From assembly GCF_002854065.1 (NCBI RefSeq), contig NZ_CP024147.1: DNA of 64,000 bases; one strand, 5' to 3'. This stretch comes from Escherichia coli. GTDB lineage: Bacteria; Pseudomonadota; Gammaproteobacteria; Enterobacterales; Enterobacteriaceae. The position numbers are program-made. Every line of letters starts with the position of its first letter. Positions within the stretch are counted from its first letter, which is position 1. Below are positions 24,504 through 27,500 of the stretch, in pieces.

Positions 24504-27500
24504 TTAAGCGCGCGCTTCAACTCACCCCTGCAATATTTTGTCCATCACGCGCCCCGGCAGCAGGCGCTTAAGTACCATTACCGCCCAGGTCACCAGCGTT
24601 ACCGGATAGCGCATCTTCGGCTTCTCGCTAATAAAAGCATGGCGCACTTTGTCCACCACCGCTTCCGGCCCCAACGTAAAGCGAGCAGCGATGCCGGGAT
24701 TTTCGACTGGTTTATCACTTTGCGTCTGGTTGACGTTGTCGGTGAAGCGAGTACGAATGGGACCGGGTTCGATCAGGCTGACTTTAATTCCGCTGTGGCG
24801 TAGCTCCATGCGCAGCGCGTCTGACCACGCCTCCAGCGCATATTTACTGGCCGCGTAAGCGCCACGACCCGGCGTGGAGATTAATCCCATCACCGATGAG
24901 GTCATCACAATACGCCCTTCACCGTGCGGTAACATCGCGGGTAACAGGCGCATGGTGAGCTGGTGTGCGCCGAAAAAGTTGGCGGAAAACTGCTGTTCCA
25001 TCTGCGCACGGCTGATGGTGGAAAGGGGGCCATACATGCCGAATCCGGCATTGTTAAAGATCCCATACAGACAATTATCGGTCAGGGCGATCACCTCGTC
25101 GGCTGCGCGATCAACACTTTCTGGTGAATCCAGATCGATCAACACGCCGGTAAATCCCATGCTGTTCATGCGCTCAACATCATCCGGTTTCCGGCAACCT
25201 GCCAGCACATGAAAACCCTGGCGTTTTAATTCGAGCGCGCTTTCCAGGCCAATTCCACTGGAACATCCGGTAATTAAGACCGATTTTTGCATAACTTTAC
25301 CTGTCAGGATCTCCGTTGCTTTATGAGTCATGATTTACTAAAGGCTGCAACTGCTTCGCCATCCAGTCGGCAATAAACGGCTGGGCGTCGCGGTTGGGAT
25401 GAATACCGTCATCCTGCATCCATTGTGGCTTGAGGTAGACCTCTTCCATAAAAAAGGGCAGCAGCGGAACATCAAACTCTTTGGCGAGTTTGGGGTAAAT
25501 GGCGCTAAAGGCTTCATTATAACGGCGACCATAGTTTGCAGGCAGACGTATTTGCATTAACAATGGTTCAGCGTTGGCGGCTTTGACATCCTGCAAAATC
25601 TGACGCAGCGTTTGCTCGGTTTGCTGTGGCTGAAAACCACGCAAACCGTCATTGCCGCCCAGTTCAACCAGCACCCAGCGCGGCTGATGCTGTTTCAGCA
25701 GAGCCGGAAGGCGCGCCAGCCCTTGTTGCGAGGTGTCGCCGCTGATGCTGGCATTAACTACCGACGTTTTACTCTGCCACTTATCATTCAACAAGGCAGG
25801 CCAGGCCGCGCTGGCAGACATTCGATACCCGGCGCTCAGGCTATCACCCAGAATCAATAACGTGTCCGCTGCGGCGGCACGGAAGGTTAACAGGACCAGG
25901 AACAGGAAGGGCAAATGCCAGCGGAAAACATTGTTGAAGTTCATCATCTTAAGAAGTCCGTCGGTCAGGGGGAGCATGAACTCTCCATCCTCACCGGAGT
26001 TGAGTTGGTTGTCAAACGTGGCGAGACCATCGCACTGGTGGGCGAGTCGGGATCGGGTAAGTCAACCTTGCTGGCGATCCTCGCCGGGCTGGATGACGGC
26101 AGCAGTGGCGAAGTGAGTCTGGTGGGACAACCGCTACATAATATGGACGAAGAAGCGCGGGCAAAGTTGCGCGCGAAGCACGTCGGCTTTGTTTTTCAGT
26201 CATTTATGTTAATTCCTACCCTTAACGCGCTGGAAAACGTCGAGCTTCCGGCGCTGCTGCGCGGTGAGAGTAGCGCGGAAAGTCGTAACGGAGCGAAAGC
26301 GTTGCTCGAACAGTTAGGTCTGGGTAAACGTCTGGATCATCTTCCGGCACAGCTTTCCGGCGGTGAACAGCAACGAGTGGCGCTGGCACGAGCCTTTAAC
26401 GGTCGACCTGATGTGCTGTTTGCCGACGAACCCACCGGCAACCTTGACCGCCAGACCGGCGATAAAATTGCCGACCTGCTGTTTTCCCTCAACCGTGAGC
26501 ATGGCACCACGTTGATAATGGTGACCCACGACCTGCAACTGGCGGCACGCTGCGACCGCTGCTTACGGCTGGTGAACGGGCAGTTGCAGGAGGAAGCATG
26601 ATTGCACGTTGGTTCTGGCGCGAATGGCGCTCGCCGTCGCTATTAATTGTCTGGCTGGCGCTAAGCCTGGCGGTGGCCTGCGTGCTGGCGCTGGGCAATA
26701 TCAGCGATCGCATGGAGAAGGGCTTAAGCCAGCAAAGCCGTGAGTTTATAGCGGGCGATCGGGCGCTGCGCAGTTCGCGCGAAGTGCCGCAAGCATGGCT
26801 GGAGGAAGCGCAAAAGCGCGGCCTGAAAGTCGGCAAGCAGCTGACTTTCGCCACCATGACATTTGCAGGCGACACACCGCAGCTGGCGAACGTTAAAGCG
26901 GTGGATGATATCTACCCGATGTATGGCGATCTGCAAACCAATCCCCCTGGCCTGAAACCGCAGGCGGGCAGCGTATTGCTGGCCCCACGCCTGATGGCAC
27001 TGCTTAACCTGAAAACGGGCGACACCATTGACGTGGGCGATGCCACCTTGCGGATTGCCGGAGAAGTGATTCAGGAACCGGATTCCGGTTTTAACCCCTT
27101 CCAGATGGCTCCGCGTCTGATGATGAATCTGGCGGATGTCGATAAAACCGGAGCCGTGCAGCCGGGGAGTCGGGTCACCTGGCGCTATAAATTCGGCGGC
27201 AGCGAGAACCAGCTCGACAGCTATGAGAAATGGTTGTTACCTCAGCTTAAACCCGAACAACGCTGGTACGGTCTGGAACAGGACGAAGGCGCGCTGGGGC
27301 GATCGATGGAACGCTCGCAACAGTTCCTGCTGCTTTCGGCGCTTCTGACCTTGCTGCTGGCAGTGGCAGCAGTGGCGGTAGCGATGAATCATTACTGTCG
27401 CAGTCGCTACGATCTGGTGGCGATCCTCAAAACGCTGGGGGCAGGGCGAGCGCAACTGCGTAAGCTAATCGTCGGTCAGTGGTTGATGGTGCTGACGCTT

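What the first reader, a model, noticed from the sequence alone, without database searches (positions are those of the whole stretch)
25915..25947. Divergent tesA and ybbA coding regions overlap at their 5' ends
With the tesA start at 25947 (minus strand) and the ybbA start at 25915 (plus strand), the two divergent genes share about 33 bp. Their promoters must therefore lie inside each other's coding sequence, an unusual arrangement.
Basis: seen in the sequence. Interest (0 to 1): 0.15.

Follow-up and report, generated by a model that had tools for sequence, protein, structure and literature searches.

The report
Real tesA/ybbA head-to-head gene overlap
The E. coli genes tesA and ybbA, which point away from each other and encode partners of one membrane complex, really do share about 30 bases at their starts, so each gene's control signals sit inside the other; this is rare and conserved, but already annotated and published.

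Summary
Observation confirmed. The window is E. coli. tesA (minus, 25321..25947) and ybbA (plus, 25915..26601) overlap head-to-head by 33 nt with the K-12 start, or 30 nt with the RefSeq start at 25944. The codons of the two genes are in register.

The overlap is real, not a start-codon error:
- An ATG at TesA residue 1 or 2 is kept in 15 of 15 Enterobacterales.
- The zero-overlap alternative, TTG 25914, is not conserved as a start codon.
- Synonymous differences drop from about 0.55 to 0.08 in exactly the 11 shared codons of both genes.

Published start-site mapping (Kim 2012) puts the tesA transcription start at 25979, inside ybbA. It lies below a perfect TTGACA whose ybbA codons never vary. 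Weak ybbA starts lie inside tesA at 25760 and 25528.

All 80 related loci, from Gamma- and Betaproteobacteria, keep the divergent pair. In 60 of the 78 I could measure, the predicted starts overlap or lie at most 11 nt apart. Eighteen share an interlocked CATG. The Enterobacterales overlap looks like a 5' extension of the TesA signal peptide.

The E. coli overlap is already annotated, noted in the YbbAP-TesA paper and listed as a divergent excludon. Any regulatory role is untested. Interest is low to moderate.

The parts
25915..25947 (.). Dual-coding head-to-head overlap of 33 nt (30 nt if tesA starts at 25944). On the plus strand it encodes YbbA residues 1-11 (MPAENIVEVHH). On the minus strand it encodes TesA residues 1-11 (MMNFNNVFRWH). 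The codons are in register.
   Evidence: Synonymous differences are 0.084 here against ~0.55 elsewhere. The sequence is identical in 5398 of 5417 E. coli genomes.
25321..25947 (-). tesA CDS, the 208-aa precursor of thioesterase I / protease I / lysophospholipase L1 (SGNH/GDSL hydrolase). RefSeq PGAP starts it at 25944 (207 aa).
   Evidence: Pfam Lipase_GDSL_2 at 1.8e-29. PDB mature chains 1ivn and 9ge8_T start at residue 27.
25870..25947 (-). TesA signal-peptide coding region (residues 1-26). The n-region is MMNFNNVFR, the h-region WHLPFLFLVLLTF and the c-region RAAAA. The n-region is the part that overprints ybbA.
   Evidence: Solved mature TesA begins at A27. The N-terminal M(M)NF..FRWH motif is conserved across Enterobacterales.
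25915..26601 (+). ybbA CDS, the 228-aa ATPase of the YbbAP type VII (MacB-like) ABC transporter.
   Evidence: Pfam ABC_tran at 7.5e-34. Residues 1-228 are identical to PDB 9ge6/7/8 chain B. ATG 25915 is the only start candidate before the first beta-strand in every Enterobacterales locus.
25904..25911 (+). ybbA Shine-Dalgarno sequence AGGAAGGG. It is encoded on the other strand by TesA signal-peptide codons P13-F14-L15.
   Evidence: Anti-SD duplex of -7.0 kcal/mol. The complementary TTCC(C/T)T motif recurs at the same place in distant loci.
25948..25979 (-). tesA 5' UTR (32 nt), from the mapped TSS at 25979 to the ATG. It lies entirely inside ybbA codons 12-22.
   Evidence: Kim et al. 2012 Table S1 gives a TSS at 519021 (-) with 45 reads and a 32-nt UTR. 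The 51-mer maps to 25979..26029 (-) with 1 mismatch.
25987..25992 (-). -10 element of the tesA promoter, GAGGAT (3 of 6 matches), inside ybbA codons I25-L26.
   Evidence: A PWM scan gives TTGACA-17-GAGGAT with a predicted TSS near 25980. This is in the top 0.006% of positions in the window and coincides with the mapped TSS.
26010..26015 (-). -35 element of the tesA promoter, a perfect TTGACA, inside ybbA codons 32-34 (GTT GTC AAA).
   Evidence: The synonymous-difference fraction is 0.00 at codons 32-34 and returns to ~0.53 from codon 35. TGTCAA is invariant in 12 of the 15 aligned Enterobacterales (TGTCGA in Photorhabdus and Providencia).
25915..26016 (+). Zone of ybbA (codons 1-34) with suppressed synonymous change. 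It corresponds to tesA codons 1-11, the tesA 5' UTR and the tesA promoter, all superimposed on ybbA.
   Evidence: Among Enterobacteriaceae only, the synonymous-difference fractions are 0.044 (codons 1-11), 0.174 (12-21), 0.271 (22-31), 0.000 (32-34), 0.533 (35-60) and 0.510 (61-228).
25760..25760 (+). Published ybbA TSS (2 reads, 155-nt 5' UTR), inside tesA codon 63. A weak TTGCGA-17-TGGCAT lies upstream.
   Evidence: Kim 2012 Table S1. The 51-mer maps to 25710..25760. A weak PWM match predicts a TSS near 25761.
25528..25528 (+). Second published ybbA TSS (2 reads, 387-nt 5' UTR), inside tesA codon 140.
   Evidence: Kim 2012 Table S1. The 51-mer maps to 25478..25528.
25912..25914 (-). Alternative tesA start TTG (codon 12). 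It would give a 197-aa protein and exactly zero overlap. Rejected.
   Evidence: Some gene callers use it (197-aa entries P0066 and P0070; KPN_00472 at 594 nt). The codon is TGG, GTG, CTC, TTT or TTA in other Enterobacterales. It has no SD (-0.9 kcal/mol).
25975..25977 (-). Alternative upstream tesA ATG. It would give a 218-aa protein and a 63-nt overlap. Unlikely.
   Evidence: It has a strong SD-like GGAGAG (-8.4 kcal/mol). But the mapped TSS at 25979 leaves only a 2-nt leader. The ATG is lost in Citrobacter FP75 and outside Enterobacteriaceae other than Providencia, and Rahnella has an in-frame stop just before MMNF.

Best explanation
This is a genuine, conserved head-to-head overlap of two real protein-coding genes.

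Shown:
- Bases 25915-25947 are read on both strands. They encode the first 11 residues of YbbA (start of its first beta-strand) and the first 11 residues of the TesA signal peptide (its n-region).
- Because there is no intergenic DNA, every expression signal of one gene is written inside the other.
- The tesA promoter (TTGACA 26015-26010, 17-nt spacer, GAGGAT 25992-25987, TSS 25979) and the 32-nt tesA leader lie in ybbA codons 12-34.
- The ybbA ribosome-binding site AGGAAGGG is made of TesA signal-peptide codons 13-15.
- The only mapped ybbA starts (25760, 25528) lie in tesA codons 63 and 140.
- The two promoters therefore face each other, and the mapped mRNAs are complementary over at least 220 nt of their 5' ends (25760-25979).

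Inferred:
- The ancestral state in Gamma- and Betaproteobacteria was a zero-spacer junction, often an interlocked CATG in which the two start codons share AT.
- In the Enterobacterales ancestor the tesA start moved about 30 nt upstream, onto ATG codons that are the antisense of YbbA His10/His11 (CAT). This added an extended n-region to the signal peptide.
- The arrangement locks tesA(-ybbO) to ybbAP, whose products form one complex.
- It forces antisense and RNA-polymerase-collision coupling between the two units. With 45 versus 2 TSS reads, tesA appears to be the dominant partner. Whether cells exploit this coupling for regulation is not shown.
For: - Gene identity: Pfam and PDB matches.
- Annotation: 33-nt overlap in K-12 and 30-nt in PGAP records.
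- tesA start codon: an ATG at TesA position 1 and/or 2 is present in 15 of 15 Enterobacterales. Either one can be lost (TMNF, MLNF) but never both. Arg9 of the n-region is conserved.
- ybbA start codon: ATG 25915 is the sole start candidate, and tblastn alignments of orthologues begin at residues 1-6.
- Dual-coding signature: synonymous differences are 0.084 in the 11 shared codons of both genes against 0.52-0.57 in the gene bodies (p = 3e-7 and 8e-6). This is the lowest window in each gene, with a sharp step at the ybbA ATG.
- Control: tesA codons 12-63, which carry ybbA's SD and leader but are not dual-coding, show no suppression (0.57).
- Promoter: the published tesA TSS (45 reads) maps to 25979. 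The PWM hit TTGACA-17-GAGGAT is in the top 0.006% of the window. The -35 codons never vary, and constraint in ybbA ends at codon 34.
- ybbA TSSs lie inside tesA.
- tesA-ybbA is one of 16 divergent excludons seen in at least 50% of 58 E. coli transcriptomes.
- Deep conservation: all 80 loci keep divergent ybbA next to tesA. Predicted junctions are 30-51 nt overlaps in all Enterobacterales, a 2-nt CATG in 18 loci, and a 0-3 nt gap in 9. Pseudomonas (13 loci) has a 10-11 nt gap.
- The YbbAP-TesA complex is solved, and its authors note the operon overlap.
Against: - The precursor N-terminus of TesA has never been determined directly, because the signal peptide is removed. The choice between ATG 25947 and 25944, and the exclusion of 25977, rests on comparative inference.
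- The tesA ATGs have a weak SD (-3.2 kcal/mol).
- ybbA TSS support is minimal (2 reads each). I could not consult other TSS data sets.
- The strict promoter scan found nothing, and the -10 matches only 3 of 6.
- Synonymous suppression at gene 5' ends can also come from translation-initiation constraints. Pairwise counts are not phylogenetically independent.
- Start codons in the 77 related loci of the junction table are heuristic predictions.
- No evidence here shows that the antisense coupling changes expression. Mutual exclusion would be odd for partners of one complex.
Confidence: 0.82

Rival explanations
1. Annotation artefact. tesA really starts at the TTG at 25914 (197-aa precursor). The genes would then abut exactly, with no shared coding bases.
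For: - Several gene callers choose this start: 197-aa and 194-aa database entries and K. pneumoniae KPN_00472 at 594 nt.
- Divergent overlaps are frequently start-codon misannotations (PMC2478687).
- The annotated ATGs have a weak SD.
Against: - The codon is not a start codon in C. werkmanii (TGG), Rahnella (CTC), Acerihabitans (TTT), Photorhabdus or Providencia (TTA).
- It has no SD (-0.9 kcal/mol).
- The resulting signal peptide would lack the conserved charged n-region (Arg9).
- Synonymous variation in ybbA codons 1-11 is suppressed 6-7 fold. tesA codons 12-26, which carry ybbA's SD and leader, show no such suppression.
- Even if this rival were true, the intergenic distance would be 0 and the promoters would still lie inside the partner genes.
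Confidence: 0.06
2. The overlap is longer. tesA starts at the upstream ATG 25977 (218 aa, MLPLTDGLLKMMNF...), giving a 63-nt overlap. Translation could come from a near-leaderless mRNA or from an upstream promoter.
For: - It has a strong SD-like GGAGAG (-8.4 kcal/mol), and the ATG is present in 8 of 10 Enterobacteriaceae.
- 218-aa forms exist in databases.
- ybbA codons 12-21 show intermediate synonymous suppression (0.17).
- A second promoter-like site, TTGCCC-15-TATTAT, predicts a TSS near 26131.
Against: - The mapped TSS at 25979 leaves only a 2-nt leader and excludes the SD from the mRNA.
- The ATG is lost in Citrobacter FP75, and among the other Enterobacterales examined only Providencia has an ATG there. 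Rahnella has an in-frame stop directly upstream of MMNF.
- The putative extension varies in amino acids wherever ybbA changes synonymously (P/T, L/F). Its amino-acid difference is 0.23 against 0.14 in the true overlap.
- The SD-like motif is the antisense of the conserved YbbA ELSIL codons.
Confidence: 0.07
3. The overlap is real but has no regulatory role. It would be a frozen by-product of start-codon drift in an already spacer-less gene pair. It would be kept only because any change now damages two proteins, and the antisense transcription would be incidental noise.
For: - Junction geometry varies freely between clades, from a 113-nt gap to a 78-nt overlap, and in different frames. No particular overlap length is required.
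- Some lineages (Marinobacter, Halomonas, Aeromonas, Salinicola) do well with ordinary spacers.
- ybbA TSS reads are very low.
- Mutual exclusion is not an obvious need for partners of one complex.
Against: - Divergent adjacency is kept in 80 of 80 loci, and a spacer of at most 11 nt is predicted in 60 of 78 across two proteobacterial classes.
- The embedded -35 TTGACA is conserved at synonymous sites.
- The pair is detected as an excludon in at least half of 58 transcriptomes.
Confidence: 0.4

Closest known systems
The annotated tesA/ybbA overlap in E. coli K-12 (b0494/b0495) and the YbbAP-TesA complex (PLoS Biol 2025, PMC12646458; PDB 9GE6-9GE8)
   Same: It is the same locus. The window's proteins are identical to the K-12 and PDB sequences. 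[quoted passage not shown]
   Different: In the passages I searched, the paper does not analyse the start codons, the dual-coding constraint, the embedded promoter or the junction geometry across taxa. Those were worked out here.
Divergent excludons (overlapping 5' transcripts of divergent neighbours; ExcludonFinder, NAR 2025, PMC12288877)
   Same: tesA-ybbA is listed among the 16 divergent excludons of E. coli MG1655. The mapped TSSs give a 220-nt 5' antisense overlap.
   Different: In the usual excludon only the UTRs overlap, across an intergenic region that averages 95 nt in E. coli. Here the coding sequences themselves overlap and there is no intergenic DNA. Reciprocal repression has not been shown for this pair.
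Overlapping prokaryotic genes (surveyed by Palleja et al. 2008, PMC2478687)
   Same: Two annotated CDSs share nucleotides. The overlap arose by 5' extension of one gene onto an upstream start codon, the mechanism that paper describes for 5'-end overlaps.
   Different: Most overlaps are co-directional (92%) and 1-4 nt long. Divergent ones are 1%, and all 75 longer than 60 bp were misannotations. This one is divergent, 30-33 nt, and supported as real by conservation. The Pectobacterium variant may reach 51-78 nt.
Back-to-back bidirectional promoter regions of divergent operons
   Same: Two divergently oriented transcription units are controlled from one short stretch of DNA.
   Different: The mapped TSSs are face-to-face rather than back-to-back. 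The tesA TSS (25979) lies downstream of the ybbA TSS (25760) on the ybbA strand, so the transcripts cross instead of diverging.

Membership tests
Genuine overlapping protein-coding gene pair (divergent, antiparallel dual coding) | Both ORFs are real, expressed protein-coding genes | tested here: met
   Pfam GDSL and ABC_tran matches. Both proteins have solved structures with identical sequence, including the joint complex 9GE8.
Genuine overlapping protein-coding gene pair (divergent, antiparallel dual coding) | The true start codons place shared nucleotides inside both CDSs | tested here: met
   The comparative evidence is strong. There is no direct determination of the pre-TesA N-terminus, and the choice of 25947 versus 25944 stays open (33 versus 30 nt).
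Genuine overlapping protein-coding gene pair (divergent, antiparallel dual coding) | The shared segment shows constraint from both reading frames (suppressed synonymous change with sharp boundaries) | tested here: met
   0.084 against ~0.55, the lowest window in both genes, with a step at the ybbA ATG. Within-species invariance supports this.
Divergent excludon | Divergent neighbours whose transcripts overlap at their 5' ends | tested here: met
   Published TSSs mapped onto the window are tesA 25979 (-) and ybbA 25760/25528 (+). The pair is listed in the E. coli excludome. The ybbA TSSs rest on 2 reads each.
Divergent excludon | Reciprocal (mutually exclusive) expression through transcriptional interference and/or RNase III cleavage of the duplex | not testable with these tools
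   This needs expression data from promoter mutants, RNase III mutants or single cells. No pair-specific data were found in the papers read.
Back-to-back bidirectional promoter | TSSs diverge from a shared region so that the transcripts do not overlap | tested here: not met
   The mapped TSSs are face-to-face, with 220 nt of transcript overlap.
Sec-exported SGNH/GDSL hydrolase (TesA) | GDSL catalytic block plus a cleavable N-terminal signal peptide | tested here: met
   Pfam PF13472 and PF00657, with GDS at residues 34-36. Mature PDB chains start at A27. The n/h/c layout is read from the sequence.
Type VII (MacB-like) ABC transporter ATPase (YbbA) | ABC ATPase domain encoded next to an FtsX-family permease | tested here: met
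   PF00005 in YbbA. PF02687 (FtsX) in YbbP, whose start overlaps the ybbA stop by 4 nt. YbbA is identical to the 9GE6-8 chain, and its nearest PDB relatives are LolD and MacB.

The most novel reading that the evidence does not exclude
The spacer-less, interlocked head-to-head junction of tesA and ybbA may be an ancient, selected regulatory device. The junction is CATG in many lineages and is extended to 30-78 nt of dual coding in Enterobacterales. It would be retained since before the split of Gamma- and Betaproteobacteria. Its obligatory face-to-face promoters and 5' antisense RNA pairing would set the ratio, or the timing, of the lipid hydrolase TesA relative to its transporter YbbAP. The sequence of the TesA signal peptide would then be co-determined by the ybbA ribosome-binding site and the YbbA N-terminus.
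Probability: 0.25. Interest if true: 0.5.

Novelty: already known. Interest (0 to 1): 0.22.

Why it matters
For annotation, this is a well-supported counter-example to the working rule that divergent CDS overlaps signal a wrong start codon. Gene callers that penalise overlap truncate TesA to 197 aa and remove the charged n-region of its signal peptide.

For biology, TesA and YbbAP were recently shown to form one envelope complex. Their expression signals are physically interleaved: the promoter and leader of tesA lie in ybbA codons 12-34, and the ribosome-binding site of ybbA lies in the TesA signal peptide. Three things follow.
- Engineering either gene will perturb the other. Removing the leader to make 'TesA for fatty-acid production is one such edit. 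Deleting tesA or recoding ybbA are others.
- The pair gives a compact, testable case of face-to-face promoter and antisense coupling between partners of one complex.
- The comparative series shows how a dual-coding segment can grow by overprinting. It runs from ordinary spacers, through the interlocked CATG and the 30-nt overlap, to a possible 78-nt overlap in Pectobacterium.

Tried and rejected
- The strict sigma-70 consensus scan of 25500-26400 found no promoter. The mapped tesA promoter has only 3 of 6 matches in its -10, so a PWM scan was needed.
- An Rfam search of 25300-26700 at E <= 1 found nothing. No known RNA element explains the conservation.
- Other TSS sources gave nothing. The Cappable-seq supplements held as text do not cover this region. 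Thomason 2015 is not held. The Conway 2014 and Rend-seq supplements are not held. The ROSE supplement has no entry. The ExcludonFinder supplements are not held. The K. pneumoniae TSS sheet was cut off, so only the orthologue table was available.
- A search for PA2856/PA2857 literature on the Pseudomonas junction gave nothing relevant.
- A ybbA start downstream of 25915 was considered and rejected. There is no in-frame ATG, GTG or TTG before codon 31, and starting there would delete the first beta-strand that is conserved in all orthologues.
- My start-picking heuristic failed or is doubtful for a few loci: Dokdonella L053 (artefactual 152; the minimal estimate is 2), Bowmanella L031 and Vibrio mexicanus L022 (no start found). 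These are not used as evidence.
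Full report
**What is there.** The window is Escherichia coli. Bases 25300-26650 are 100% identical to strain 100416 and 99% identical to K-12, and the stretch is present in 5418 of 5426 complete genomes.

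On the minus strand an ORF ends at 25321 and carries ATG ATG at 25947/25944. On the plus strand an ATG at 25915 opens a 228-codon ORF.
- The minus-strand product is TesA, a GDSL/SGNH hydrolase. Its solved mature chains begin at residue 27.
- The plus-strand product is YbbA, identical over all 228 residues to the ATPase chain of the YbbAP-TesA cryo-EM structures.
- The curated K-12 record annotates a 33-nt overlap (519733-519765).
- RefSeq PGAP records start tesA one codon later, which gives 30 nt.

The two frames are in register: ybbA's ATG is TesA His11 (CAT), and tesA's ATGATG is YbbA His10-His11.

**Is the overlap real or a start-codon artefact?** Divergent overlaps have a poor record. In 338 genomes they were 1% of well-characterised overlaps, and all 75 longer than 60 bp were misannotations (PMC2478687). 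So I tested the alternatives.

For ybbA there is no alternative. No in-frame ATG, GTG or TTG occurs before codon 31, and orthologue alignments begin at residues 1-6.

For tesA there are two alternatives.
- TTG at 25914 would give exactly zero overlap, and some gene callers use it (197-aa entries; K. pneumoniae KPN_00472 at 594 nt).
- ATG at 25977 would give a 218-aa protein and a 63-nt overlap.

In 15 Enterobacterales loci fetched from a scan of one genome per species, an ATG at TesA position 1 and/or 2 is always present. Either can be lost (TMNF in three taxa, MLNF in Photorhabdus), but never both. Arg9 of the n-region is conserved.

The TTG codon is TGG, GTG, CTC, TTT or TTA in other taxa, and it has no Shine-Dalgarno sequence.

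The upstream ATG is lost in Citrobacter FP75 and, outside Enterobacteriaceae, survives only in Providencia. Rahnella has an in-frame stop immediately before MMNF. The putative extension also changes amino acids wherever ybbA changes synonymously.

**Dual-coding signature.** I compared codon alignments of the 15 Enterobacterales pairwise and counted how often codons for the same amino acid differ.

| Gene region | Synonymous-difference fraction |
|---|---|
| ybbA codons 1-11 (overlap) | 0.084 |
| tesA codons 1-11 (overlap) | 0.084 |
| ybbA codons 37-228 | 0.57 |
| tesA codons 64-208 | 0.52 |
| tesA codons 12-63 | 0.57 |

- The per-codon Mann-Whitney tests give p = 3e-7 for ybbA and 8e-6 for tesA.
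- The overlap is the lowest of 217 (ybbA) and 197 (tesA) sliding 11-codon windows.
- In tesA the constraint ends abruptly at codon 11/12, which is exactly the ybbA ATG.
- tesA codons 12-63 carry ybbA's ribosome-binding site and leader but are not dual-coding. They show no suppression. So the effect is not a generic property of 5' regions or embedded signals.
- Within E. coli, a 61-mer over the overlap is identical in 5398 of 5417 genomes. Two control 61-mers are identical in 4796 of 5418 and 2845 of 5416.

Caveats apply. Pairwise counts are not phylogenetically independent, and there are only two population controls.

**Where the promoters are.** Kim et al. 2012 (PMC3415461, Table S1) mapped E. 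coli transcription start sites genome-wide. I located their 51-mers in the window.
- The tesA TSS (45 reads, 32-nt leader) is at 25979, which is 64 nt inside ybbA.
- Upstream lies a perfect -35 TTGACA (26015-26010), a 17-nt spacer and GAGGAT (25992-25987).
- A PWM scan ranks this site in the top 0.006% of positions in the 64-kb window and predicts a TSS at about 25980.
- The -35 falls in ybbA codons 32-34 (GTT GTC AAA), whose synonymous sites never vary. TGTCAA is invariant in 12 of the 15 aligned Enterobacterales; Photorhabdus and Providencia have TGTCGA.

Within Enterobacteriaceae, synonymous differences along ybbA are as follows.

| ybbA codons | Synonymous-difference fraction |
|---|---|
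| 1-11 | 0.044 |
| 12-21 | 0.174 |
| 22-31 | 0.271 |
| 32-34 | 0.000 |
| 35-60 | 0.533 |

The constrained zone 25915-26016 thus equals tesA codons 1-11 plus the tesA leader plus the tesA promoter.

The ybbA TSSs are at 25760 and 25528, inside tesA codons 63 and 140, but have only 2 reads each. A weak TTGCGA-17-TGGCAT fits the first. ybbA's Shine-Dalgarno sequence AGGAAGGG (25904-25911) is the antisense of TesA signal-peptide codons P13-F14-L15.

The mapped promoters are face-to-face, and the transcripts are complementary over 25760-25979 (220 nt). This agrees with the listing of tesA-ybbA among the 16 divergent excludons found in at least half of 58 E. coli transcriptomes (PMC12288877).

**Relatives.** A profile of TesA homologues retrieved 80 loci, one per species. 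They span Enterobacterales, Vibrionales, Alteromonadales, Pseudomonadales, Oceanospirillales and Methylococcales. SAR86, Xanthomonadales and two Betaproteobacteria are also represented. Every one has a divergent ybbA homologue beside tesA. In Candidatus Pantoea persica it is fragmented, and in Salinicola it lies about 445 nt away.

I used conserved anchors (TesA G34, YbbA G28) and simple start rules to predict the junction in 78 sequences (77 related loci plus the window).

| Predicted junction | Loci |
|---|---|
| 30-51 nt overlap | 17 (all Enterobacterales, including the window) |
| 20-35 nt overlap | 3 (2 Shewanella, 1 doubtful Bowmanella) |
| 2-nt overlap, start codons interlocked as CATG | 18 (Vibrio, Psychromonas, Oceanisphaera and Rheinheimera, among others) |
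| 0-3 nt gap | 9 |
| 10-11 nt gap | 13 (Pseudomonas; the gap holds tesA's GGAG) |
| 19-113 nt gap | 16 |
| ~445 nt gap | 1 (Salinicola) |
| Heuristic artefact | 1 (Dokdonella; minimal estimate 2) |

The 18 CATG loci also include Cycloclasticus, Nitrincola and Marinobacterium. One Halomonas, Glaciecola and Cupriavidus complete the set.

So in 60 of 78 the predicted starts overlap or are at most 11 nt apart. The frame relation differs between clades.

YbbA's N-terminus has the same length in E. coli and Vibrio (27 versus 26 residues before the anchor). TesA's is 8 residues longer in E. coli (33 versus 25 before the anchor). So the Enterobacterales overlap is best read as a 5' extension of the TesA signal-peptide n-region over ybbA. 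It exploits ATGs that are the antisense of YbbA His codons. These start assignments outside E. coli are predictions, not measurements.

**How it most likely works.**

Shown:
- Both frames are constrained across 25915-25947.
- The tesA promoter and leader lie in ybbA.
- ybbA's ribosome-binding site lies in the TesA signal peptide.
- The transcripts overlap.

Inferred:
- Zero spacing is ancestral.
- The arrangement keeps tesA(-ybbO) and ybbAP genetically inseparable.
- It imposes polymerase-collision and antisense coupling, with tesA the stronger unit.

Whether that coupling is used for regulation is open. Variable junction geometry, and lineages with ordinary spacers, argue that no specific overlap is needed. 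The near-universal adjacency and the conserved embedded -35 argue that the compact junction is not indifferent.

**Comparison with what is known.** The E. coli overlap is in the reference annotation. The YbbAP-TesA structure paper states that the tesA-ybbO operon partially overlaps ybbA-ybbP and that similar arrangements occur in other Gram-negatives (PMC12646458). The pair is also in the published excludome.

It differs from a typical excludon because coding sequences, not just UTRs, overlap. It differs from a back-to-back bidirectional promoter because the TSSs face each other.

Four points appear to add to the record:
- the dual-coding constraint;
- the promoter embedded at synonymous sites;
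- the interlocked CATG in many lineages;
- the extension series up to a possible 51-78 nt in Pectobacterium.

None of these is surprising enough to change how such loci are understood.

**Verdict.** The feature is real, rare in kind and deeply conserved, but already known for E. coli. Interest is 0.22.

Noticed in passing
L013 (Pectobacterium betavasculorum), about 3450-3650: An insertion of about 45-48 nt lies inside the tesA/ybbA overlap and lengthens both proteins. YbbA's only start gives MFAKTSPASATPSKTAHVENILEVHHL. TesA reads MMNFKNVFYVRSFAWRSTRWAGLRKHVFV.... The predicted overlap is 51 nt (GTG start) to 75-78 nt (conserved MMNF start). That is longer than any divergent overlap accepted as real in the 2008 survey.
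   Followed up: partly
L051 and L066 (Shewanella), junction near 3400-3520: Predicted head-to-head overlaps of 20 and 35 nt, apparently independent of the Enterobacterales one. The only start codons closer in would remove the signal peptide.
   Followed up: partly
L019, L020, L023, L026-L028, L032, L034, L035, L038, L039, L054, L061, L064, L069, L074, L082 and L024 (junctions): The two predicted start codons are interlocked as the palindrome CATG, sharing AT. This occurs in 18 loci from at least eight families, including one betaproteobacterium. Pseudomonas keeps CATGGAGAATCCGATG, where the 10-nt spacer is tesA's ribosome-binding site.
   Followed up: partly
window 25904-25911; the same position in L019-L032: ybbA's Shine-Dalgarno sequence is the antisense of the first hydrophobic codons of the TesA signal peptide (the TTCC(C/T)T motif). 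The motif recurs at the same place in Vibrio, Psychromonas and Idiomarina loci. So part of the signal-peptide sequence is co-determined by the partner's ribosome-binding site.
   Followed up: partly
window 25321-25331 and 26598-26601: There are ordinary co-directional operon overlaps on both sides. The ybbO start overlaps the tesA stop region by 11 nt. The ybbP ATG overlaps the ybbA stop as ATGA (4 nt).
   Followed up: no
window about 26448 (K-12 NC_000913.2 position 519490): Kim et al. 2012 list an internal TSS (3 reads) inside ybbA, 150 nt upstream of ybbP. This suggests that ybbP may also be transcribed on its own.
   Followed up: no
window 26138-26164 (minus strand): A second, high-scoring promoter-like site, TTGCCC-15-TATTAT, lies on the tesA strand inside ybbA. 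Its predicted TSS is about 26131 and it is in the top 0.005% of the window. No TSS is listed there in the table consulted.
   Followed up: no
L018 (Candidatus Pantoea persica) 3110-3342; L056 (Salinicola): In the symbiont Ca. Pantoea persica, ybbA survives only as fragments next to tesA, so it is probably a pseudogene. Salinicola is the only locus where ybbA lies several hundred bases away.
   Followed up: no
protein database entries P0002, P0003, P0038, P0039, P0121: Some database TesA entries are 286-402 aa long. These are probably gene calls that run far upstream through the open antisense frame of ybbA. This again shows how the locus confuses gene callers.
   Followed up: no
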